A DNA stretch of 11,267 nt from a virus (lineage: Duplodnaviria; Heunggongvirae; Uroviricota; Caudoviricetes), in IMG/VR virus record IMGVR_UViG_2526164634_000012, positions 1 to 11,267 of that record; one strand, 5' to 3'. Under the pieces are notes generated by a model. That model was given only the letters and a program-made list of their open reading frames with translations. It ran no database searches and was not told the origin of the DNA. Shown here piece by piece: positions 1 to 11,267 of this stretch. The position numbers were made by a program, and so were the translations under genes. Positions within the stretch are counted from its first letter, which is position 1. The number at the start of each line of letters is the position of its first letter.

Positions 1-533
1 TGTGGGCGATTGACTGCGGCGATCTTCCGCTGGCGTTGCGTATTGGTGCGTATGTGGTCCGTCATAACCTCATTATGCCGGATAACTTTGGCCGTACTGC
101 TGCCACAGTGCTGACCGAAGAAATCTGCAACCCGGTACTGACGCAGGCCGGGGCGGATGCCGACGCGGATTTGTCCGCCTTTATCGAACCACTGGACACC
201 CTCCGGAAGATTGTCACCGACCAGGACATGCCGGACGAAGTACGCGCCAAATTATGCAAGGCGTGCGCCTTTGCCCGTCGTGGTCTGACCGATGCAGACA
301 ACATGGCCTTATCACTGAAGCTGCTGCGCGAAGCGATGCACCTGAACCCGAACGCAGGTGTGAAACGCGAGATTGCAACCCTTTCCCGCGCCCTGAAAAA
401 AGCCGATTCCGCAGCCGCATCAGAAGACGCCAGCGCACAGCAGGCGCAGGACGAAAGCAGCAAAAGTAAAAAGACAACGCGGAAGCCTGCAACACGAAAA
501 ACCACCGCGACGCAGAAGGCGAAGCGCGGTTAA
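1..533 (+). CDS. M: Terminase small (endonuclease) subunit, P2 gpM-like; 5'-partial, frame open from window edge
   Basis: Frame is open from position 3 with no stop until TGA at 531-533. Lys/Thr/Ala-rich basic C-terminal tail. Sits immediately upstream of an L-like gene as in P2. Confidence 0.75.
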   Translation, partial: WAIDCGDLPLALRIGAYVVRHNLIMPDNFGRTAATVLTEEICNPVLTQAGADADADLSAFIEPLDTLRKIVTDQDMPDEVRAKLCKACAFARRGLTDADNMALSLKLLREAMHLNPNAGVKREIATLSRALKKADSAAASEDASAQQAQDESSKSKKTTRKPATRKTTATQKAKRG

Positions 534-634
534 CGACTGACCCCGTCAGCGGGCGGCGTGCGCGGTGTTCCGGTTTGACTCCGTGGCCGTTTACACCGCG
601 CACCCACCGCCCGATTTTTTCAGGAGTGAATCCC

Positions 635-1129
635 ATGAGCATGGTTGCCAGAACCAACCCCGGCCCCGCAGAGGACGACATCACCGATACCGATGATGGT
701 GATACCCGTATTTCAGCGGGTGCATTCTGGCCGGATATTGTGCTGCGTGAGCTGCGTCTGGCGGTACGACTGCCGGGCCGTGTGACCACCTCCCGTCTGC
801 TGCATACCGCCACCGGGGCTGTGGCACATGTTACCCGCGAGCTGGAAGCATGGCAGCAGGAACAGCAGGCGGCTGGCCATCAGACGCTGGCCGATGTTCC
901 GGCACCCGTAATTAACGGAGAAAGCGTCAATCTCTGGCACTGGCGCAATGCGGTTTACACCGCCACACGCGCCCTGATTCTGGAGCGTTACCGCGATGCG
1001 GACACAACGGACAAGGGCGACCGCCGGGCGGACGCACTGGATATACAGACATCGGATTTGTGGCGTGATGTGAGCTGGGCCATCTCTGACATTCTGTGCC
1101 GTCCGCGAATCTTTGCGGAGTTGTGCTGA
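635..1129 (+). CDS. L: Head completion/stabilisation protein, P2 gpL-like
   Basis: ATG at 635 preceded by AGGAG (622-626); ORF-track ORF 575..1129 trimmed to this start. About 164 aa, close to P2 L. Stop TGA overlaps the ATG of the next gene by 1 nt. Confidence 0.8.
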   Translation: MSMVARTNPGPAEDDITDTDDGDTRISAGAFWPDIVLRELRLAVRLPGRVTTSRLLHTATGAVAHVTRELEAWQQEQQAAGHQTLADVPAPVINGESVNLWHWRNAVYTATRALILERYRDADTTDKGDRRADALDIQTSDLWRDVSWAISDILCRPRIFAELC

Positions 1130-1329
1130 TGAAAGTAAAGGCACTGGAAGGCGACACCGTGGATTCGCTCTGTTTCCGGTACTACGGCACGACGCAGGGC
1201 GTCACCGAAAAGGTGCTGGATGCCAACCCCGGACTCTGTCAGCAGGTATTTCTGGACGCCGGGCAGGAAGTGGAGATGCCGGAGCCGGAGAAGAAGAAAC
1301 GAGAAATGATTCAGTTGTGGGGGGAGTAG
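1129..1329 (+). CDS. X: Tail protein X (LysM-like), P2 gpX-like
   Basis: 66-aa ORF starting MKVKALEGDTVDSLCFRYYG..., matching the P2 X pattern (..GDTLD.ICVRYYG..NPGL). Start is the internal ATG at 1129 of track ORF 1096..1329. Confidence 0.8.
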   Translation: MKVKALEGDTVDSLCFRYYGTTQGVTEKVLDANPGLCQQVFLDAGQEVEMPEPEKKKREMIQLWGE

Positions 1330-1331
1330 CA

Positions 1332-1640
1332 GTGAGCACCATTCAAACAGGGATCACAGAGCAGGTTATTGCGTGGCTCTTTGACCACCTGCCAACGGTG
1401 TATGCAGTAGGCGCGGCGGTCAGCATTTCCGCGCTGATGAGTCTTTATGACGGACGAACACTGGTTCAGACCGTAACGGGATCGCTGGCGTGCGGCGTTC
1501 TTGCCATGGCCGTGGCCGGGTCGTTGCGCTTCTTCGGTTTTCCTGAAGATGCCGTGACGTTTATCGGCGCACTCAATCGGTTTTATGGGGGGCAGAGAAA
1601 GCACGCGACAAGGTTATTGCGGCCTTTAATCGCAGGGTGA
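1332..1640 (+). CDS. Holin (two predicted TM helices); 3' end uncertain, alternative frame ends at 1657
   Basis: GTG at 1332 preceded by GGGGGAG. Hydrophobic stretches TVYAVGAAVSISALMSL and LVQTVTGSLACGVLAMAVAGSL. Position between X and the endolysin matches P2 Y. Confidence 0.6.
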   Translation: MSTIQTGITEQVIAWLFDHLPTVYAVGAAVSISALMSLYDGRTLVQTVTGSLACGVLAMAVAGSLRFFGFPEDAVTFIGALNRFYGGQRKHATRLLRPLIAG

Positions 1641-1653
1641 AGGAGAAGGACGA

Positions 1654-2045
1654 ATGAGCAACACATTTAAATTCAGCAGCCGGAGCGAAAAGAATTTGCA
1701 GGGCGTAAATCCTGATCTGGTGAAAGTGACCCGACGGGCACTGGAAATCTCGGAAGCGGATTTGGTATCACCGAAGGGTTGCGCAGCCGTTACCGCCAGA
1801 AGCAACTGGTGGCCACGGGTAAGAGCCAGACCATGAACAGCCGCCACCTTACGGGGCATGCCGTGGATGTTGTGGCTTATATCGGCAGCCAGGTGTCATG
1901 GGAATGGTCGCTGTACGAAAAAATCGCAGCAGCATTCAGACAGGCCAGCCGGGAACTGAATATTCCGGTGGAATGGGGCGGCGACTGGAAGACCCTGAAA
2001 GACGGACCGCATTTTCAGTTACCACACGGAGCCTATCCGGCATGA
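1654..2045 (+). pseudogene. Endolysin, peptidase M15 (L-alanyl-D-glutamate / VanY-like) family; frame broken by apparent 1-nt deletion in T-run at 1761-1763
   Basis: Track ORFs 1654..1836 and 1779..2045 join into one ~131-aa protein if GATTTGG is read as GATTTTGG, giving ...EADFGITEGLRSRYRQKQLVATGKSQTMNSRHLTGHAVDV... with Zn-binding H-x6-D and downstream GPHFQ histidine. AAGGAG RBS lies upstream of ATG 1654. Confidence 0.7.
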
Positions 2046-2449
2046 AGCTCTGGCCCACGCTGGGTGTCGCTTTCCTTCTGATTGCCGCATGGGGAACATC
2101 CATACGTCTGTCGTGGTCGCTGGGCCGGGAGAACGCCAGAAACGAAGCGCAGGCCAGCACCCTGAAAAGTACCGTCGACACCCTGAATATCATCAGCACC
2201 GGGGTACAGGATATGCAGCAGGTGCTGGCGCAACTCCGCGTGGAAAATCAGCAACGCAATCAGGACGGAGAAGCCATACGTGAACAGCTACGCAACGATA
2301 TTGCAAAAGATGAATGCGCCCACGCTTTGCCTGATGCTCGTTTTACTGACAGGTTGCGCAGGCACGCAGAACGCGCCACGGCCAGCGCCGTCAGTCCGGC
2401 TTATACCGCAGACGCTGACCATACCGGTAACGCCTCCCCCCTTCCCTGA
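2042..2449 (+). CDS. lysB: i-spanin (Rz-like), P2 LysB-like
   Basis: ATG 2042 overlaps the endolysin stop (ATGA). N-terminal TM segment LWPTLGVAFLLIAAWG followed by a coiled-coil-like Q/E/R-rich region. Contains the embedded out-of-frame lipoprotein gene. Confidence 0.7.
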   Translation: MKLWPTLGVAFLLIAAWGTSIRLSWSLGRENARNEAQASTLKSTVDTLNIISTGVQDMQQVLAQLRVENQQRNQDGEAIREQLRNDIAKDECAHALPDARFTDRLRRHAERATASAVSPAYTADADHTGNASPLP

Positions 2450-2600
2450 CACTCCCACATGGGGAAATCTCGGTATATGGGGCGACCGCCTTCTGGATGC
2501 ACTGGAAACCTGTAACGCGGATAAACGGGCCATTGAATTACTGGAACAGCGCAGACTGCAACGACTGAACAACGAGGACAACAACCATGCTGAAAACTGA
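2310..2600 (+). CDS. lysC: o-spanin (Rz1-like outer-membrane lipoprotein), P2 LysC-like, embedded in and extending past lysB
   Basis: Lipobox LLTGC after a hydrophobic stretch; Pro-rich mature region. The 96-aa length from ATG 2310 equals P2 LysC; an alternative GTG start at 2280 has a better RBS (GGAGAAG). Confidence 0.65.
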   Translation: MNAPTLCLMLVLLTGCAGTQNAPRPAPSVRLIPQTLTIPVTPPPFPDTPTWGNLGIWGDRLLDALETCNADKRAIELLEQRRLQRLNNEDNNHAEN

Positions 2601-3054
2601 TTCCCTGCGTGAAGCCATGACCCGTTCATGCCGATGGTGTCAGGCCAACCCGGAAAAATTCACCATTTTCGTGGAGAGCGGCAACATTGAAACGACCGGA
2701 GAAACACCCTCGTTTGTTTACCGCTATCAGATGGTGATGTTTGTCATGGATTACGCCGGGGAGCTGGACGACCTCACGCTGCCGCTGCTGGCGTGGTTAT
2801 CCGAAAATCAGCCACAGTTGTTGCTCAACCCTGAGCGTAATCAGGACATCAAATTTTCCGCCGTTATCAATGACGATGACAGCGCCGATCTCCTGTTTAC
2901 GCTCCCCCTGCGGGAACGCGTTCGCATCACGCGCAGCAGTCAGGGCACACCGCAGGCAGAACACCTGCCGGAGCCAAAACCCCGCCTGCCATCTTCCGAA
3001 GGCGACTGGTCGCATGTATTCCAGGATGTGACGTGGGGTGAAAGCGATGGATAA
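2587..3054 (+). CDS. R: Tail completion protein R, P2 gpR-like
   Basis: 155 aa, the same length as P2 R. Starts MLKTDSLREAM... and contains LLAWLSENQP, matching the recalled P2 R pattern. Confidence 0.8.
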   Translation: MLKTDSLREAMTRSCRWCQANPEKFTIFVESGNIETTGETPSFVYRYQMVMFVMDYAGELDDLTLPLLAWLSENQPQLLLNPERNQDIKFSAVINDDDSADLLFTLPLRERVRITRSSQGTPQAEHLPEPKPRLPSSEGDWSHVFQDVTWGESDG

Positions 3055-3683
3055 GGCATTCACCCGCGTGGATGAAACCTTTGAGGCCATCCGCGACAGC
3101 CTGAATCAGCAGGCCATCAATAACATCGCCAGAAAGCTGGCACAGGATTTACGCCGCGCCCAGCAGGCGCGCATCCGGTCACAGAAAGCGCCGGACGGGA
3201 CCGCATGGACACCACGCAGACGCCGCGTAACCCGGATACAGGAGCGCATTCGCTTTATCTGGAATAACGAAGCACGCACGCTGAAAAACTGGCATCACGA
3301 CACGGGGAAATACGGGCGAACCATTACCGGGTGGGATGAGGATAAAAACAATATCCGCACGTTTTACCGGGATGACATCGACCGTTTTTCTGGAAATACG
3401 CACCCGGCGCATCAACCAGGACAGCACAAAGCGCGTCCCCATGTTCGTAAAACTGCGCACCGCCCGCTACCTGAAAGCCCGTGCAGATGCTTCCGGTGTG
3501 ACGGTGGGTTACAGCGGCGTGGCCGCACGTATTGCACGCGTTCATCAGTTCGGTGAGCGCGATCAGGTTGCGCCGGGCATTTTCACCGATTACCCGGTAC
3601 GTGAGCTGCTGGGTATCAGCCAGGCAGATGAGCGCCTGATTTATAACACGGTGCTGGGCCGGATTGCGGAGGCTGTACGGTGA
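3047..3683 (+). pseudogene. S: Tail completion / virion morphogenesis protein S, P2 gpS-like; frame switches at TTTTT run 3385-3389
   Basis: Track ORF 3038..3556 is protein-like only up to ...FYRDDIDRF, then becomes Arg/His/Pro/Cys-rich. Track ORF 3336..3683 is protein-like only from LEIRTRR onward (...IARVHQFGERD...YPVRELLG...). Removing one T joins them. Start could be GTG 3038 or ATG 3047. Confidence 0.55.
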
Positions 3684-4260
3684 GCGCAGAACTCATGCGA
3701 CTGCTGAGCAACATCATCCGTACCGGGATCATCTCTGAAGTTGATGAGGAATCCTGGTGCGTGCGCGTTCGCAGCGGCGAACTGGAAACAGGCTGGCTGC
3801 GCTGGAACACCACGCGCGCGGGAGCCTTCAATGTGTGGCTGCCGCCATCACCAGGCGAACAGGTGGTAATTGCCTGCATTGGCGGCAACCCGGAAACCGC
3901 CATGATAATTGGCAGCCTGTGGAGTGATGCCAGTCCGGCCCCCGGCAAAAGCCTGAAAGAAATCGTGATCAGCGCGCCGGATGGCGCGGTGTTCCGCTAC
4001 GACACGGACGCAGGCGCACTGAGCGCCAGCGGCATGAAAACAGCCACCCTGCAGGCATCCGTCAGCGTGACACTGGATACGCCCGTCGTGGAATGCACAG
4101 ACCTTCTGAGAACAGCGACGCTTGACGTCACAAAAGGGGGAAGATGAGCGGCAATATCACGCACAGCGGCGGCGATTTCACCTCAAACGGCATCACAGTG
4201 CATACGCATAAGCACGGTGGCGTTAAAGGTGGCAGCGATTCGACAGGAGGCCCGCAGTGA
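3680..4260 (+). pseudogene. V: Baseplate spike/assembly protein V, P2 gpV-like; frame broken near 4136-4143
   Basis: Track ORF 3680..4147 ends ...LDVTKGGR*. A short frame from 4144 encodes MSGNITHSGGDFTSNGITVHTHKHGG..., the His-rich apex motif of gpV. A 1-nt insertion in GGGGGAAG would give ...TKGGKMSGNITHSGG... as one ~193-aa protein. GTG start overlaps the S stop (GTGA). Confidence 0.7.
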
Positions 4261-4607
4261 CAACCCGCTACACAGGAATGAATCCGGACGGGACGGGAAA
4301 CCTGAACGATATGGAGCACCTGAAACAGTCAGTCAGGGACATCCTGATCACCCCGCTGGCAAGCCGGGTTATGCGACGGGAATATGGCAGCCTTGTGCCT
4401 GATTTGATTGACGAACCCATGAATAACACAACTCGTCTGCAATGCATGAGTGCTGCCGTGATTGCGCTGACACGATGGGAACCCCGCATTGCCCTGGACG
4501 CCATCGACGTTGTCTGGAAAGCGGGAGGCCGCGCCGGGGTGACGCTGTCGGGCACTGTCATGCAGACCATGCAGAATGTTGAGTTAACCATCACGCTGAA
4601 GGAGTAA
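4257..4607 (+). CDS. W: Baseplate wedge protein W (gp25/GPW family), P2 gpW-like
   Basis: 116 aa from GTG 4257, overlapping the V stop; position and size match P2 W (115 aa). An alternative ATG start lies at 4278. Confidence 0.75.
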   Translation: MTTRYTGMNPDGTGNLNDMEHLKQSVRDILITPLASRVMRREYGSLVPDLIDEPMNNTTRLQCMSAAVIALTRWEPRIALDAIDVVWKAGGRAGVTLSGTVMQTMQNVELTITLKE

Positions 4608-4610
4608 ATC

Positions 4611-5507
4611 ATGCCCGCCGTTGACCTTTCCCAGTTACCGGAACCCGCCATCATCGCGGAGCCTGACTTTGAGGCAATTCTGGCTGACACAAAGGCCATG
4701 ATGATTGCGGCTTATCCCGCCGAACAGCGTGAAGCCGTCTCCGCCGCGCTGGAGCTGGAATCGGAACCCCTGAACGTTATCGCCCAGACAACAGCGTTTC
4801 GTGAAATGCTGTTACGCCAGCGGGTCAATGAGGGGGCACGCGCCTGCATGTTAAGCCACAGCGCCGGGACAGACCTGGACAACCTCGCGGGCAATATGAA
4901 CACAAAGCGCCTGACCATCACTCCGGCAACGGATACCACCGACGCAGTGATGGAAAGTGACACCTCGCTGAGACTGCGGGCACAGCGGGCGTACGATGGC
5001 CTGAGTGTTGCTGGCCCGTCAGGTGCATACGAGTATTTTGCACGCAGCGCCAGCGGTCTGGTGCGTGATGCGCGGGCCATCAGCCCGTCTCCGGCCTGTG
5101 TGACGGTTTCCATTCTGTCCACTGAAGGCGACGGCACAGCAACGGAGGCGTTGCTTAATACCGTTCGCGCCGTTCTGAATGCAGAGGATACCCGTCCGGT
5201 GGCCGACCGCCTGACCGTACAGAGCGCCAGAATCGTGACATGGCGGCTGAATGCAAAACTGTACTTTTACCCCGGCCCGGAATCCGAACCTATTCTGGCC
5301 GCGGCTGAATCGTCGTTCAGGAAGTGGCTGGCTGAGCAGGGGCTTATCGGTCAGGACGTGGCGTTGTCCGCCATTGCTGCCGCACTGCATGTGCACGGTG
5401 TGCAACGCGTGGAGATAATCGAACCCACACAGAATATGGCCATCAGCGACATACAGGCGGCGCGCTGTGAGTCATTCACCATCAGCGAAGGTGGGCGCAA
5501 TGAGTAA
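4611..5507 (+). CDS. J: Baseplate protein J, P2 gpJ-like
   Basis: 298 aa; begins MPAVDLSQLPEP..., and contains ...RLTITPA...GLSVAG...SPSPACVT...RPVADRVTVQSA..., matching the recalled P2 J pattern. Confidence 0.85.
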   Translation: MPAVDLSQLPEPAIIAEPDFEAILADTKAMMIAAYPAEQREAVSAALELESEPLNVIAQTTAFREMLLRQRVNEGARACMLSHSAGTDLDNLAGNMNTKRLTITPATDTTDAVMESDTSLRLRAQRAYDGLSVAGPSGAYEYFARSASGLVRDARAISPSPACVTVSILSTEGDGTATEALLNTVRAVLNAEDTRPVADRLTVQSARIVTWRLNAKLYFYPGPESEPILAAAESSFRKWLAEQGLIGQDVALSAIAAALHVHGVQRVEIIEPTQNMAISDIQAARCESFTISEGGRNE

Positions 5508-6108
5508 TTCGTTGTTACCACCATCAGCCAGCAATTTCATGCGTTGTGCCGAAGCCGTCGGAACACGCATTACAGACATTCCGGTAGACCTCAACACGCT
5601 GTGGTCGCCGGACACCTGCCCGGTGCATCTGCTGCCTTATCTCGCCTGGGCGTTTTCCGTTGACCGCTGGGATCGCAACTGGCCGGAAGAGACAAAGCGA
5701 CAGGTGATTCGTGATGCATGGCTGATACACCGACACAAAGGGACCATCAGCGCACTGCGAAGAGCCGTGGAGCCTCTCGGTTACCTGATTGAAGTAAAGG
5801 AGTGGTGGCAACTCAACGAGGAGCCGGGAACATTTCGCATTGTTGTCGGAGTACTTGATCAGGGCATCACCGATGAAATGTATCAGGAACTTGAGCGCCT
5901 TATTGCGGATGCAAAACCAGTAAGTCGCCATCTGACGGGGCTGGCGATCAGCCTGAGTGTGAACGGAAAGATTTTCGTTGGTACGGGATGCTATCACGGC
6001 GATGCCCTGACGGTTTATCCCTACACCCCGGAGTCCATTATTGTCGAAGGGGACTATTTCCCTGCCCCGGCCATTCATTTAATTGATAATCTGAGAGTAA
6101 ACGCATGA
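5500..6108 (+). CDS. I: Baseplate/tail protein I, P2 gpI-like
   Basis: ATG 5500 after GGTGGG, overlapping the J stop. Contains WSPDTCPVHLLPYLAWAFSVDRWD and ...RLIADAKP.SRHL..., matching recalled P2 I. Start chosen inside track ORF 5467..6108. Confidence 0.8.
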   Translation: MSNSLLPPSASNFMRCAEAVGTRITDIPVDLNTLWSPDTCPVHLLPYLAWAFSVDRWDRNWPEETKRQVIRDAWLIHRHKGTISALRRAVEPLGYLIEVKEWWQLNEEPGTFRIVVGVLDQGITDEMYQELERLIADAKPVSRHLTGLAISLSVNGKIFVGTGCYHGDALTVYPYTPESIIVEGDYFPAPAIHLIDNLRVNA

Positions 6109-8137
6109 CAGTGAAATACTACGCCATTCTGACTAATCAGGGCGCGGCACGACTGGCTAACGCGACGATGCTCGGCAGTAAGCTGAATCTGACGCAAATG
6201 GCCGTTGGTGATGCAAATGGTGTGTTACCAACACCAGACCCTGCACAAACAAAACTGATTAACCAGAAACGCATTGCACCGCTGAATCTTCTGAGTGTTG
6301 ACCCTAACAATCAGAGCCAGATTATTGCGGAGCAAATCATCCCTGAAAACGAGGGAGGATTCTGGATCCGTGAGATTGGTCTTTATGATGATGAAGGTGT
6401 ACTCATTGCGGTGGCAAACTGCCCGGAAACGTACAAACCGCAGTTGCAGGAAGGCAGTGGTCGTACCCAGACTATCCGCATGATTCTGGTTGTCACGAAC
6501 ACCGAAGCCATCACGCTGAAAATCGACCCGTCTGTGGTTCTGGCAACCCGCAAATATGTGGATGATAAAATCTCAGAGCACGAACAGTCACGACATCACC
6601 CGGACGCCTCGCTGACCGCAAAAGGTTTTACTCAGTTAAGCAGTGCAATTAACAGTGAATCAGAAACACTGGCCGCAACACCGAAAGCAGTTAAGGCTGC
6701 ATATGACCTGGCTGACGGGAAATATACCGCCCAGAACGCCACCACAACACAAAAAGGGATTGTTCAGCTCAGTAGCGCCACGAACAGCACGTCTGAAACG
6801 CTGGCAGCAACACCAAAAGCTGTTAAGGCGGTAATGGATGAAACGAACAAGAAAGCACCATTAAACAGCCCGGCACTGACCGGAACGCCAACAACACCAA
6901 CAGCGCCACAGGGGACTAATAGTACCCAGATCGCAAGCACGGCTTTCGTTATGGCCGCGATTGCCGCACTTGTAGATTCGTCACCTGATGCACTAAACAC
7001 GCTGAGCGAACTGGCTGCGGCGCTGGCAATGACCCGAATTTTGCGACCACCATGACTAACGCGCTTGCGGGTAAGCAACCGAAAGATGCCACCCTGACGG
7101 CGCTGGCCGGGCTTGTTACTGCGGCAGACAGGTTTCCGTATTTTACGGGGAATGACGTTGCCAGTTTGGCAACCCTGACAGAAGTCGGGCGGGATATTCT
7201 TGCGAAATCGACCGTTGCCGCTGTTATCGAATACCTCGGTTTACAGGAAACGGTAAACAAGGCTGGTAACGCCGTTCAGCGTTCCGGCGATAAAATGACC
7301 GGAGAACTGAAAATTGGAACGATGAATGCGCTGCGAATTTTTAATGATGCCTTCGGTCTTATTTTCCGCCGTTCAGAAGAGTCCCTTCATTTCATCCCTA
7401 CGGCTGAAGGACAAGGCGAAAACGGTGATATCGGCCCATTAAGGCCATTCGCTATAAATCTAAGAACAGGTGCTATATATGTCAGCCACGGGGCCAAAAT
7501 TGAAGGAGGTCTAGCTATTGGTGCTACTGATAACGCACTGGGTGAAAACTCCATTGTTCTGGGAGATAACGACACCGGATTTAGGCAAGATGGAGATGGT
7601 ATTATTAGCTTCTATTCAAATGGTTCGCGCATCGGACATATTGATGGGTTAGGATTACATCTTTATAAAGATATTGAATCTAATTGCAGCAATTTTAGAT
7701 TAAAAAGTAATTACCGCCACCACATTACATTCACCAACGAAGACGGAAGTATTCGTATGTTTTTGTGGAAAGATAACGGTGGTGATGGTGTTCATATTAA
7801 TAACGGTTCAGATGGTGGTGGTGATTTCATTTTTAAAACAGATGGGGGATTTGCGCTGGGAAGTGGTGCGCAAGTTGCGTCTAGTGGCGATATTTATGGT
7901 TCAGTGTGGGGAAACAACTGGTTAAGCACATGGCTGCATAATCATGTCGTTCGGGATATTCGTCTTGGCAGCATTGAATATAAAAACGTATGGCGCGACT
8001 ACGGCTTTGGCGATGCGTCAGGTTATGTTTTAACAGCCGCAATTAACGGCAATGCGGATGATCTTGTCGACACTGTTGCCAGAAGGCCAATTCAGAAATT
8101 GATTGGGGGAATATGGTACAACGTGGGGAGTGTTTAA
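6105..8137 (+). pseudogene. H: Tail fibre protein H, P2 gpH-like; frame broken by apparent 1-nt deletion in G-run at 7025-7026
   Basis: Track ORFs 6105..7055 and 7052..8137 are the N and C parts of one gene. Reading CTGGCAAT as CTGGGCAAT restores ...ELAAALGNDPNFATTMTNALAGKQPKDATLTALAGL..., a junction I recall from P2 H. C-terminus ...[17 protein letters not shown] resembles the P2 H end. Confidence 0.8.
6624..6836 (+). repeat. Two copies of the phage tail-fibre repeat motif (QLSSA.NS.SETLAATPKAVKA) within H
   Basis: GFTQLSSAINSESETLAATPKAVKAA at about 6624-6704 and GIVQLSSATNSTSETLAATPKAVKAV at about 6756-6836, repeated at protein level with diverged DNA. Confidence 0.55.
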
Positions 8138-8138
8138 G

Positions 8139-8666
8139 ATGATGCACTTAAAAAATATTACTGCTGGCAACCCTAAAACAAAAGAACAATACCAGCTAAC
8201 TGAAAAAGCGGGCGTGGTATGGCTCTTTTGCGAAGATGGCAAAAACTGGTATGAGGAACAAAAGAATTTTCAGCCAGACACCATAAAAATTGCTTACGAT
8301 GAGAACAACATCATCGTTGCTGTCAGTAAAGACGTTTCAACTATTAATCCTGAAGGGCTAAGCATAGTTGAAGTTCCTGATATTACGGCAAATCGTCGCG
8401 CAGACAATAACGGAAAATGGATGTTTCTGTATGGTAAAGTAGTAAAGAGGGAATATACAGAACAGGAACTGCAACAACAGGCCGAATCACAAAAGGCCGC
8501 GTTGCTTTCTGAAGCAGAAAGCGTTATTCAGCCACTGGAACGCGCTGTCAGGCTGAACATGGCAACAGATGAGGAGCGTAGCCGACTGGAAGCATGGGAG
8601 CGCTACAGTGTTCTGGTCAGCCGTGTGGATACGGCAAATCCTGAATGGCCACAAAAGCCTGAATAA
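8139..8666 (+). CDS. G: Tail fibre assembly chaperone, P2 gpG-like
   Basis: ATG 8139 after GGGGAG, 2 nt after the H stop. 175 aa; N-terminus [21 protein letters not shown] and C-terminus ...[34 protein letters not shown] match recalled P2 G closely. Confidence 0.85.
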
Positions 8667-8671
8667 AAATT

Positions 8672-8700
8672 AAGGCCCGATAGCGGGCCTTGTCTCATTC
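8672..8700 (+). terminator. Putative rho-independent terminator after the V-W-J-I-H-G operon
   Basis: Perfect 8-bp stem AAGGCCCG / CGGGCCTT (8672-8679 and 8684-8691) with a 4-nt loop, followed by a T-rich but interrupted tail TTGTCTCATT. Confidence 0.4.
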
Positions 8701-8725
8701 GTAAGCGCATCATTTAAACCGTCTT
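8701..8725 (+). repeat. Putative left terminal inverted repeat of the IS66-family element (exact length not determinable without the right end)
   Basis: GTAAGCGCATCATTTAAACCGTC... begins 10 bp after the terminator hairpin; the right IR is outside the window so pairing cannot be verified. Confidence 0.4.
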
Positions 8726-8785
8726 TCGCCTCCCTTTCCTGTTTCCGATACTAATGTCCATTTTCGCAGTAAAAGGACATTTAAG

Positions 8786-9436
8786 ATGAATGCACGAAAA
8801 GCGGTACTGGCAGATAATCCAGAATTGATCCTGCGTGTGCTACAGCTGAGATTTGACGAGTCACTGTCGTACCCGCGCATTTCTGCGCAGACTGGTGTCA
8901 GCAAAACCGCCATTTTTTCTCTGGTGAGGCGATTTCACCAGGTATTCACTGACTGGCCTCTTTCCGGTGAATATTCCTGCGGGCAACTGGCCCGGGCTCT
9001 TTTCCCGGGGCGATACCCTTCAGCCCCGACCGTGACTCAGCCTGTGAAAGCAGAGAAACCCCGCCGGAACCGATTTTCACCGGAGTTTAAATGGAGACTG
9101 GTTCAGCAAACTCTTTTACCCGGTGCCTGTGTCGCACAAATAGCTCGAGAGAATGGAATTAACGATAACCTGCTCTTTAACTGGCGGCATCTCTGGCGTA
9201 ACGGTGGCCTGCAACCGCCCGGCGAACATGAAACATCGCTACTTCCCGTGACGTTAACTCCGGAGCCGGATAATAAAATCCCGGCACCAGTGCAGATACC
9301 TGAACAGATAAATACACTGCCAGACAGTCTGTGCTGCGAGCTGGTTCTGCCGGCCGGAACTCTCAGGCTGAAAGGTGAACTGACACCGGCGTTATTACAG
9401 ACACTTATCCGCGAAATGAAAGGGAGCAGCCACTGA
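8786..9436 (+). CDS. tnpA: IS66-family accessory protein TnpA-like, with an N-terminal extension of about 90 aa (HTH-like)
   Basis: C-terminal half ...RRNRFSPEFKWRLVQQTLLPGACVAQIARENGINDNLLFNWR... fits the IS66 TnpA pattern. AAGGA RBS before ATG 8786. Stop overlaps the tnpB start (TGATG). Confidence 0.7.
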   Translation: MNARKAVLADNPELILRVLQLRFDESLSYPRISAQTGVSKTAIFSLVRRFHQVFTDWPLSGEYSCGQLARALFPGRYPSAPTVTQPVKAEKPRRNRFSPEFKWRLVQQTLLPGACVAQIARENGINDNLLFNWRHLWRNGGLQPPGEHETSLLPVTLTPEPDNKIPAPVQIPEQINTLPDSLCCELVLPAGTLRLKGELTPALLQTLIREMKGSSH

Positions 9437-9782
9437 TGATATCTCTCCCTGCCGGTTCGCGTATCTGGCTGGTCGCCGGTATCACCGATATGCGAAATGG
9501 CTTTAACGGCCTGGCCTCAAAAGTTCAGAACGTCCTGAAGGATGACCCGTTCTCCGGGCATCTGTTCATCTTCCGCGGACGCCGGGTGACCAGATAAAAG
9601 TGCTGTGGGCTGACAGTGACGGACTGTGCCTCTTCACCAAACGCCTGGAGCGGGGCCGCTTCGTCTGGCCGGTCACCCGCGATGGAAAGGTTCACCTTAC
9701 TCCGGCTCAGTTGTCCATGCTTCTCGAAGGCATCGACTGGAAGCACCCGAAACGAACGGAACGCGCTGGCATCCGCATATAA
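9436..9782 (+). pseudogene. tnpB: IS66-family TnpB (orf2); frame broken by apparent 1-nt deletion in G-run at 9584-9586
   Basis: MISLPAGSRIWLVAGITDMRNGFNGLASKVQNVLKDDPFSGHLFIFRGRR then stops at 9595-9597. The shifted frame (track ORF 9600..9782) continues ...VLWADSDGLCLFTKRLERGRFVWP...LTPAQLSMLLEGIDWKHP. Reading CGCCGGGTGAC as CGCCGGGGTGAC joins them into a ~116-aa protein. Confidence 0.75.
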
Positions 9783-9801
9783 CCCGTTGTAAAGTGAGGA
9801 T

Positions 9802-11267
9802 ATGGACACCTCACTTGCTCATGAGAATGCCCGCCTGCGGGCACTGTTGCAGACGCAACAGGACACCATCCGCCAGATGGCGAAATACAACCGCCTGCTC
9901 TCACAGCGGGTGGCGGCTTATGCTTCCGAAATCAACCGGCTGAAGGCGCTGGTTGCGAAACTGCAGCGCATGCAGTTCGGTAAAAGCTCAGAAAAACTTC
10001 GCGCTAAAACCGAACGGCAGATACAGGAAGCACAGGAGCGAATCAGCGCACTTCAGGAAGAAATGGCGGAAACGCTGGGTGAGCAATATGACCCGGTACT
10101 GCCATCCGCCCTGCGCCAGTCTTCAGCCCGTAAACCGTTACCGGCCTCACTTCCCCGTGAAACCCGGGTCATCCGGCCGGAAGAGGAATGCTGCCCGGCC
10201 TGTGGTGGTGACCTCAGTCCTCTGGGGTGTGATGTGTCAGAGCAACTGGAGCTTATCAGCAGCGCCTTTAAGGTTATCGAAACACAACGTCCGAAACTGG
10301 CCTGTTGTCGGTGCGACCATATCGTGCAGGCAACAGTACCTTCAAAACCCATTGCACGCAGTTATGCCGGAGCGGGGCTTCTGGCCCATGTTGTTACCGG
10401 GAAATATGCAGACCATCTGCCGTTATACCGCCAGTCAGAAATATACCGTCGCCAGGGCGTGGAGCTGAGCCGCGCCACGCTGGGGCGCTGGACAGGTGCC
10501 GTTGCTGAACTGCTGGAGCCGCTGTATGACGTCCTGCGCCAGTATGTGCTGATGCCCGGTAAAGTCCATGCTGATGATATCCCCGTCCCGGTCCAGGAGC
10601 CGGGCAGCGGTAAAACCCGGACCGCCCGGCTGTGGGTCTACGTCCGTGATGACCGTAACGCCGGTTCGGAAATGCCCCCGGCGGTCTGGTTCGCGTACTC
10701 ACCGGACCGGAAAGGTATCCATCCACAAAATCATCTGGCCGGTTACAGCGGTGTGCTTCAGGCCGATGCTTACGGTGGTTACCGGGTGTTATACGAATCC
10801 GGCAGAATAACGGAAGCCGCGTGTATGGCTCATGCCCGGAGAAAAATCCACGATGTGCATGCAAGAGTGCCCACCGACATCACCACGGAAGCCCTGCAGC
10901 GTATCGGTGAACTGTATGCCATAGAGGCAGAAGTCCGGGGATGTACAGCAGAACAGCGTCTGGCGGCAAGAAAAGCCAGAGCTGCGCCACTGATGCAGTC
11001 ACTGTATGACTGGATACAGACTCAGATGAAAACACTGTCGCGTCACTCGGATACGGCAAAAGCGTTCGCATACCTGCTGAAACAGTGGGATGGCCTGAAC
11101 GTGTACTGCAGTAATGGCTGGGTGGAAATCGACAACAACATCGCAGAGAACGCCTTACGGGGAGTGGCCGTAGGCCGGAAAAACTGGCTGTTCGCGGGTT
11201 CCGACAGCGGTGGCGAACATGCGGCGGTGTTGTACTCGCTGATCGGCACATGCCGTCTGAACAATGT
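9802..11267 (+). CDS. tnpC: IS66-family transposase TnpC (DDE), 3'-partial, open to window end
   Basis: My own translation from ATG 9802 shows no stop to the window end; this ORF is absent from the supplied track, presumably because it has no stop. N-terminal leucine-rich coiled coil, Cys pairs CPACGG...CCRC, and motifs ...[12 protein letters not shown]..., ...HADD.PVPV..., ...LQADAY.GY..., ...[25 protein letters not shown]... typical of IS66 transposases. Confidence 0.85.

What the first reader, a model, noticed from the sequence alone, without database searches (positions are those of the whole stretch)
1755..1770. Endolysin (M15 peptidase) split by 1-nt deletion in T-run
GCGGATTTGGTATCACC reads ...EAD|LVSPKGCAAV... 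and terminates early, whereas the other frame gives FGITEGLRSRYRQKQLVATGKSQTMNSRHLTGHAVDV, the catalytic core of an M15 peptidase. One extra T (GATTTTGG) yields a continuous ~131-aa endolysin. As written, the lysis enzyme is inactivated.
Basis: seen in the sequence. Interest (0 to 1): 0.5.

Follow-up and report, generated by a model that had tools for sequence, protein, structure and literature searches.

The report
Endolysin frameshift, probably a sequencing error
The phage cell-wall-cutting enzyme gene really is split by one missing T in this deposited sequence, but the same short draft contig has six other one-base slips that no related genome shares, so the break is most likely a sequencing error and not a biological inactivation.

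Summary
A 130-aa M15 (L-Ala-D-Glu peptidase type) phage endolysin is read in frame 1 for residues 1-36 (1654-1761) and in frame 3 for residues 37-130 (1761-2042). All relatives have TTTT where the window has TTT (1761-1763). The window is the whole contig AIHD01000041.1 of the draft genome of E. coli DEC12D. It holds the late region of a P88-like (P2-family) prophage, followed by an IS679 copy.

The frameshift is not isolated. Against seven finished relatives the contig has 7 private one-base indels and only 4 private substitutions. The indels break the holin (twice), the endolysin, gpS, gpV, tail fibre H and IS679 TnpB. Six finished relatives treated the same way have 125 private substitutions and no private indels. 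None of 1009 complete E. coli genomes with this gene shares the deletion. Two other draft contigs of this prophage, one of them from strain DEC8E, carry their own private indels at other positions.

The most likely reading (about 0.73) is a homopolymer or consensus error in a draft assembly. The rival (about 0.24) is real decay of an IS-disrupted prophage. Either way the finding is ordinary, and read-level data would settle it.

The parts
1332..1657 (+). Holin gene (Phage_holin_3_1). It is 107 aa in relatives. Here two private 1-nt insertions (+C at 1572, +G in the G-run at 1587) break it, and the ORF as written ends at 1640 (102 aa).
   Evidence: indels. (Pfam PF05106: 48 bits for the window product, 71 bits for an intact relative). 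(removing both bases restores the 107-aa product).
1654..1836 (+). N-terminal fragment ORF of the endolysin: 36 native residues (with V35A) followed by 24 out-of-frame residues and a stop.
   Evidence: The product EHX45643.1 is found on this contig only.
1761..1763 (+). T-run with three T where every relative has four. This is the frameshift site.
1761..2045 (+). Remainder of the endolysin (residues 37-130) in the other frame. It carries the Peptidase_M15_4 domain and the SRHLTGHAVD ... PHF motif. The mechanical ORF from TTG runs 1779-2045.
   Evidence: 100% identity, frame 3. (PF13539, 47.9 bits). (alignment to ChiX and 23ri).
2042..2449 (+). LysB/Rz-like spanin component (DUF2570), intact, overlapping the endolysin stop codon.
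2334..2600 (+). LysC (Rz1-like) gene, partly embedded in the DUF2570 gene, intact.
   Evidence: PF23793.
3385..3385 (+). Private +T (T4 to T5) that splits the tail completion/virion morphogenesis gene gpS into 3047-3556 and 3519-3683.
4140..4141 (+). Private -A (A3 to A2) that cuts baseplate protein V at 4147 and leaves the Apex domain as a separate 38-aa ORF (4144-4260).
7024..7025 (+). Private -G (G3 to G2) that splits tail fibre gene H into 6105-7055 and 7052-8137.
9583..9584 (+). -G (G4 to G3) that truncates IS679 TnpB to 53 aa. Unlike the others, it is not unique to this assembly.
   Evidence: The same 53-aa product is on 8 contigs from several sources.
8702..11267 (+). IS679 (IS66 family) copy. 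Its left end, GTAAGCG..., is inserted in the last codons of the minus-strand tail-fibre-assembly gene. The contig ends inside the transposase gene.

Best explanation
The gene is the ordinary M15-family (L-alanyl-D-glutamate peptidase type) endolysin of a P88-like, P2-family prophage of E. coli DEC12D. It sits in the usual holin, endolysin, LysB, LysC lysis cassette. The missing T at 1761-1763 is most likely not in the bacterium's DNA. It is probably a base-calling or consensus error, a homopolymer-length miscall in a short and probably poorly covered contig of a 2012-era draft assembly. The six other single-base indels on the same contig are probably mostly of the same kind. In the real prophage the gene would then encode the intact 130-aa enzyme. 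Shown: the gene's identity, the single frame change, that the change is private, and the excess of indels on the contig. Inferred: that the cause is technical.
For: (1) The window is the entire 11,267-bp contig AIHD01000041.1 of draft assembly GCA_000250275.2, E. coli DEC12D. (2) Against seven finished relatives it has 7 private one-base indels and 4 private substitutions. Six of the seven indels change the length of a run of 2-5 identical bases. (3) As a control, six finished relatives treated the same way have 125 private substitutions in total and 0 private indels. Pairwise, finished relatives show 0-6 gaps per 90-179 mismatches, whereas the window against its closest relative shows 7 gaps per 23 mismatches. 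(4) If indels made up 10% of real mutations, the chance of at least 7 indels among 11 changes is about 2e-5; at 20% it is about 2e-3. (5) The private changes cluster: +C 1572 and +G 1587 are 15 nt apart, and SNP 1757 and -T 1760 are 3 nt apart (P about 0.01). This suggests locally poor consensus. (6) None of 1009 complete E. coli genomes carrying this gene shares the deletion or the adjacent SNP; the best match is 98.5% over 131 nt. The exact 40-mer across the site is absent from 185,579 species-representative genomes. The 60-aa fragment occurs on this contig only. The repaired protein with A35 occurs nowhere among about 15 billion proteins. (7) Two other draft contigs of the same prophage, from DEC8E (AIGJ01000041) and P0304777.1 (AQEN01000020), carry their own private indels and split genes at other positions. 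(8) The closest prophages, in FDAARGOS_1059 (99.6% identical) and O111:H2 strain 12A, have every one of these genes intact.
Against: No reads or quality values are available, so the error is inferred and not seen. I could not confirm the sequencing platform because the genome announcement is not held; that it involved 454 reads, and that the three draft assemblies come from one sequencing centre, are my recollection only. The runs involved are short (2-5 bases), and one insertion (+C 1572) is not in a homopolymer. One error per 1.6 kb of consensus is high even for pyrosequencing unless coverage was low. The prophage carries a genuine IS679 insertion, so it may not be under selection. The IS679 TnpB frameshift recurs in independent assemblies, so at least that indel may be real.
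Confidence: 0.73

Rival explanations
1. The deletion is real. The P88-like prophage of DEC12D is a decaying, defective prophage in which the holin, endolysin, gpS, gpV and tail fibre H have each been inactivated by single-base frameshifts and an IS679 has been inserted. The endolysin is then a true pseudogene and the prophage can neither lyse the cell nor build tails.
For: The IS679 left end abuts prophage DNA precisely, in the last codons of a tail-fibre-assembly gene, which is a genuine insertion. Several late genes are hit, as expected once selection is lost. The two private substitutions I translated in the lysis genes (1757 V35A, 2277 R to I) are non-synonymous. The IS679 TnpB frameshift is seen in independent assemblies, so not every indel here need be an artefact.
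Against: Six private frameshifts against three private substitutions in the prophage part is far from the indel share seen among finished relatives (0 of 125 private changes; P values). No frameshift is shared with the closest prophages (99.6% identical, all genes intact) or with any other assembly. All the events would therefore have to be very recent, yet almost unaccompanied by substitutions. Other draft contigs of the same prophage show the same kind of private indels at different sites.
Confidence: 0.24
2. The frameshift is real and is bypassed during expression, by a programmed -1 ribosomal frameshift or transcriptional slippage on the T-run, or it acts as a phase-variable switch of lysis.
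For: A -1 shift at the site would restore the frame (arithmetic). The site is a run of T.
Against: The zero-frame sequence GCG GAT TTG GTA has no X XXY YYZ slippery heptamer. A run of three T is far below the length (about 7 or more) at which transcriptional slippage or slipped-strand phase variation is known to work (established knowledge). All 1009 complete genomes with the gene, and all phages, encode it in a single frame with TTTT, so nothing is conserved that would indicate recoding.
Confidence: 0.02

Closest known systems
Endolysin of Escherichia phage P88 (Xuanwuvirus P88, Peduoviridae; YP_009113074.1) and the identical or near-identical 'M15 family metallopeptidase' WP_000072334 / WP_000072335 / WP_000072327 of E. 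coli prophages
   Same: Same gene in the same place in the cassette: tail protein X, holin, endolysin, DUF2570/LysB, LysC, gpR. DNA identity over 1300-2500 is 98-99.5%. Residues 37-130 are 100% identical.
   Different: The window lacks one T of the TTTT run and carries the private V35A substitution, so as written the gene is split into a 60-aa ORF and an 88-aa ORF.
Solved L-alanyl-D-glutamate peptidases of the M15 (LAS-type zinc) family: Serratia marcescens ChiX (PDB 5opz), 23ri, 8q2g, and phage T5 endolysin (2mxz)
   Same: Full-length collinear homology over residues 5-130, with E 1e-48 to 6e-23. The SRHLTGHAVDVVA and DGPHFQL stretches are identical to ChiX. Pfam Peptidase_M15_4 is matched.
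   Different: No activity was tested here. The window copy is interrupted upstream of the metal-binding motif.
Homopolymer-length indel errors of draft assemblies (pyrosequencing or long-read consensus errors)
   Same: Single-base gains or losses, mostly in runs of identical bases, that are private to one assembly, outnumber substitutions, fall anywhere in otherwise conserved genes, and recur at other positions in two other draft contigs of the same prophage.
   Different: The runs are short (2-5 bases), one event is outside a run, and no read-level proof is available.

Membership tests
Peptidase M15 (Peptidase_M15_4 / L-Ala-D-Glu peptidase) phage endolysin | Match to the family profile above the curated cut-off | tested here: met
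   PF13539 scores 47.9 bits (cut-off 25) for window 1779-2045 and 46.5 bits for the intact relative.
Peptidase M15 (Peptidase_M15_4 / L-Ala-D-Glu peptidase) phage endolysin | Full-length collinear homology to characterised or solved members, across the frameshift site | tested here: met
   Residues 5-130 align to 23ri, ChiX 5opz, 8q2g (E about 1e-48) and T5 endolysin 2mxz (6e-23). The window encodes aa 1-36 and aa 37-130 in two frames.
Peptidase M15 (Peptidase_M15_4 / L-Ala-D-Glu peptidase) phage endolysin | Zinc-binding His / Asp / His motif (S-x-H-x-x-G-x-A-x-D ... H) | tested here: met
   S63-R-H65-L-T-G-H-A-V-D72 and H120 are present and identical in ChiX in the alignment. The assignment of these residues as metal ligands rests on my knowledge of the family and was not tested here.
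Peptidase M15 (Peptidase_M15_4 / L-Ala-D-Glu peptidase) phage endolysin | One uninterrupted reading frame encoding the whole domain | tested here: not met
   The gene is split at 1761-1763 in the sequence as deposited.
Peptidase M15 (Peptidase_M15_4 / L-Ala-D-Glu peptidase) phage endolysin | Peptidoglycan-cleaving activity | not testable with these tools
   This requires an enzyme assay.
P2-family (Peduoviridae, P88-like) lysis cassette | Gene order tail protein X, holin, endolysin, LysB-like, LysC-like, gpR, with overlapping stop and start codons | tested here: met
   Annotation of relatives and Pfam hits of the called genes on this contig.
Programmed ribosomal frameshift or transcriptional slippage site | Slippery motif, or a long homopolymer, that is conserved among relatives | tested here: not met
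   There is no X XXY YYZ heptamer and the run is only three T. All relatives are in a single frame.
Assembly or sequencing indel artefact | The indel is private to one assembly and absent from all close relatives | tested here: met
Assembly or sequencing indel artefact | Excess of single-base indels over substitutions on the same contig, compared with finished sequences | tested here: met
   The window has 7 private indels and 4 private substitutions. Finished relatives have 0 and 125.
Assembly or sequencing indel artefact | Reads or quality values contradict the consensus at the site | not testable with these tools
   No read data are accessible, and the genome announcement is not held.

The most novel reading that the evidence does not exclude
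All or most of the frameshifts are real. E. coli DEC12D would then carry a very recently and heavily frameshifted P88-like prophage, with holin, endolysin and three tail or baseplate genes knocked out by single-base indels and almost no substitutions. That would point to an unusual indel-biased mutational process, or to selection against lysis and virion production.
Probability: 0.1. Interest if true: 0.25.

Novelty: not a real feature. Interest (0 to 1): 0.06.

Why it matters
It matters mainly as a caution. A frameshifted lysis gene in a draft contig should not be read as prophage domestication or lysis inactivation without read support, least of all when the same contig has many other private single-base indels. 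If the deletion were real, it would be one more pseudogene in a decaying P2-family prophage, which is common in E. coli. The gene, its family and its cassette are all well known.

Tried and rejected
1. Programmed frameshifting, transcriptional slippage and phase variation are rejected. There is no slippery heptamer, the run has only three T, and relatives show no conservation of a shift.
2. The idea that the two halves are genuinely separate genes is rejected. Solved homologues and more than 1000 relatives are single 130-aa proteins collinear across the site. Shorter cluster members are contig-end partials.
3. I looked for the same deletion elsewhere: an exact 40-mer scan of species-representative genomes (nothing), 5,426 complete E. 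coli genomes (none), and an exact-protein look-up (this contig only). The one other 60-aa cluster member (Logan SRR21655553) has a different 1-nt deletion 8 nt upstream.
4. I tried to confirm the sequencing platform. Hazen et al. 2012 (J Bacteriol 194:3026, PMC3370608, reference found) is not held. Searches for the accession and strain name found nothing useful.
5. I first assumed that all seven indels are unique to this assembly. That is wrong for the IS679 TnpB indel, which recurs on 8 contigs from several sources.

Full report
**The observation**

ORF 1654-1836 (60 aa) ends ...EISEADLVSPKGCAAV... ORF 1779-2045 (88 aa), in another frame, contains ...RSRYRQKQLVATGKSQTMNSRHLTGHAVDV....

tblastn of the intact protein of a close relative against the window gives two collinear pieces: residues 1-36 in frame 1 from 1654, and residues 37-130 in frame 3 at 100% identity (1761-2042). 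Alignment with the closest E. coli prophage and with phage P88 shows GATTTTGG in the relatives and GATTTGG in the window. Adding one T gives a 130-aa protein.

**What the gene is**

- The intact protein and the C-terminal ORF both match Pfam Peptidase_M15_4 well above the cut-off.
- The intact protein aligns over residues 5-130 with solved L-alanyl-D-glutamate peptidases: 23ri, Serratia ChiX 5opz and 8q2g at E about 1e-48, and phage T5 endolysin 2mxz at 6e-23. The SRHLTGHAVD and DGPHFQL stretches are conserved.
- In relatives the gene is annotated as endolysin or M15 family metallopeptidase. It sits between a Phage_holin_3_1 holin and a DUF2570 (LysB/Rz-like) gene with an embedded LysC (Rz1-like) gene, downstream of tail protein X. 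This is the P2-family lysis cassette.
- The nearest phages are P88 and other Xuanwuvirus members, at 94-98% identity.

**Where the window comes from**

An exact-protein look-up shows that the window is the whole 11,267-bp contig AIHD01000041.1 of draft assembly GCA_000250275.2. The source's protein names identify the strain as E. coli DEC12D (EHX45642 to EHX45658).

Positions 1-8701 are the late region of the prophage, from gpM to tail fibre assembly. From 8702 an IS679 (IS66 family) copy begins with its terminal GTAAGCG, inserted in the last codons of the minus-strand tail-fibre-assembly gene. The contig ends inside the IS transposase.

**The frameshift is not alone**

Gapped comparison with finished relatives shows further single-base indels that all of them lack:

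| Position | Change | Gene affected |
|---|---|---|
| 1572 | +C | holin |
| 1587 | +G (G5 to G6) | holin |
| 1760-1763 | -T (T4 to T3) | endolysin |
| 3385 | +T (T4 to T5) | gpS |
| 4140 | -A (A3 to A2) | baseplate protein V |
| 7024 | -G (G3 to G2) | tail fibre H |
| 9583 | -G (G4 to G3) | IS679 TnpB |

Gene calls on the contig show each of these genes truncated or split.

I then kept only the differences in which the window disagrees with every relative covering the position. This gives 7 private indels and only 4 private substitutions.

As a control I applied the same procedure to six finished relatives. They have 2-46 private substitutions each, 125 in total, and no private indel. Pairwise, finished relatives differ by 0-6 gaps per 90-179 mismatches. 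The window differs from its nearest relative by 7 gaps per 23 mismatches.

If indels were 10% of real changes, at least 7 indels among 11 changes has probability about 2e-5. At 20% it is about 2e-3.

The private changes are also clustered. Positions 1572 and 1587 are 15 nt apart, and positions 1757 and 1760 are 3 nt apart (P about 0.01).

**Is the deletion seen anywhere else?**

- None of the 1009 complete E. coli genomes that carry this gene shares the deletion or the adjacent C1757 substitution. The best identity over 131 nt is 98.5%, which is two differences, and the record spans are 132 nt.
- The exact 40-mer across the site is absent from the species-representative genome collection.
- The 60-aa fragment is on this contig only.
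- The repaired protein with Ala35 is absent from a collection of about 15 billion proteins, whereas the Val35 form is on at least 1000 contigs.
- The only other 60-aa member of its cluster comes from a Logan assembly of run SRR21655553. It has a different one-base deletion 8 nt upstream, and its tail protein X and DUF2570 gene calls are longer than in relatives.

**Other draft contigs of this prophage**

The cluster of the frameshifted gpS fragment has just three members: DEC12D, DEC8E and P0304777.1. Their frameshifts are at different positions.

The DEC8E and P0304777.1 contigs each carry private indels of their own, and several genes on them are split or shortened. On DEC8E these are the capsid gene, tail protein X, the holin and gpS. 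On P0304777.1 they are gpS, gpJ and gpU. The endolysin is intact in both.

So in this comparison private single-base indels appear only in draft or read-derived assemblies and never in finished ones.

**Interpretation**

The most economical explanation is that the missing T, like most of the other indels, is a homopolymer or consensus error in a short contig of a 2012-era draft, and that the prophage's endolysin is really intact.

I recall that the DEC collection drafts were produced with 454 and/or Illumina reads (Hazen et al. 2012). The paper is not held, so I could not verify this. It counts as memory, not evidence.

Several things keep me from certainty:
- No reads are available.
- The runs are short, and one insertion is outside any run.
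- The implied consensus error rate, about 1 per 1.6 kb, is high.
- The prophage does carry a genuine IS insertion.
- The IS679 TnpB frameshift recurs on eight contigs from independent sources, so it may be real.

The rival is a truly decaying prophage with real frameshifts, and I give it about one chance in four. Against it, the closest prophages (99.6% identical in FDAARGOS_1059, and O111:H2 strain 12A) have every gene intact. Six recent frameshifts with only three substitutions do not fit the indel share seen among the finished relatives.

Recoding or phase variation is rejected. There is no slippery heptamer, the run has only three T, and relatives show no conservation of a shift.

**Verdict**

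The biological conclusion is probably wrong. Whether artefact or real pseudogene, nothing here is new: the enzyme family, the phage group and the cassette are all known. Interest is low.

Noticed in passing
window 1572 and 1587 (holin gene 1332-1657): The holin immediately upstream is also broken, by two private one-base insertions 15 nt apart (+C, and G5 to G6). They replace its last 27 residues, and the ORF ends at 1640. As written, both the holin and the endolysin are defective. The source record names the truncated product 'phosphotransferase system IIC component' (EHX45642.1), which looks like a misannotation.
   Followed up: yes
window 3385, 4140, 7024: Private one-base indels in short homopolymers split gpS (tail completion), baseplate protein V (its Apex domain becomes a separate 38-aa ORF) and tail fibre H (316 + 361 aa instead of 677 aa).
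   Followed up: yes
window 8695-8710, IS679 from 8702 to the contig end: An IS679 (IS66 family) left end, GTAAGCGCATC..., is inserted after 8701, inside the last codons of the minus-strand tail-fibre-assembly gene of the invertible segment. The contig stops about 130 nt short of the IS right end, so the rest of the prophage is on another contig or missing.
   Followed up: partly
window 9436-9597 (IS679 tnpB), deletion at 9583: TnpB is cut to 53 aa by a G4 to G3 change. The identical 53-aa product is called on 8 contigs from NCBI, ENA and Logan assemblies, one of them with intact TnpA and transposase. This frameshift may be a real, recurrent IS679 variant or a recurrent error at a G-run.
   Followed up: partly
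window 7224-8700 compared with L004 13202-11726 and L009 13201-11725: The distal tail-fibre and tail-fibre-assembly segment is in the opposite orientation to FDAARGOS_1059 and O111:H2 strain 12A, with a 41-nt overlap (7224-7264) at the switch point. This fits a Cin/Gin-type invertible host-range segment. The recombinase gene lies downstream in relatives and is not on this contig.
   Followed up: partly
window 1757: A private T to C substitution (Val35 to Ala) lies 3 nt from the deleted T. Neither change occurs in any other assembly searched, which suggests a locally unreliable consensus.
   Followed up: yes
window 614 (intergenic, gpM to head completion gene): A T-run is T6 here and in most relatives aligned (L002, L003, L005, L009) but T7 in FDAARGOS_1059. 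It was the only indel between the window and FDAARGOS_1059 (L004) that was not private to the window.
   Followed up: no
L012 (Logan SRR21655553_1765) 1255; P0002 (STK46900.1): Two other read-derived or draft sequences show independent frameshifts in the same cassette. One is a G deletion 8 nt upstream of the T-run in the endolysin. The other is a 101-aa holin frameshifted at the same G-run as in the window.
   Followed up: partly
window 8672-8691: A GC-rich hairpin (AAGGCCCGATAGCGGGCCTT) lies between the convergent tail-fibre-assembly genes. It is probably a bidirectional terminator, and it sits just before the IS insertion point.
   Followed up: no
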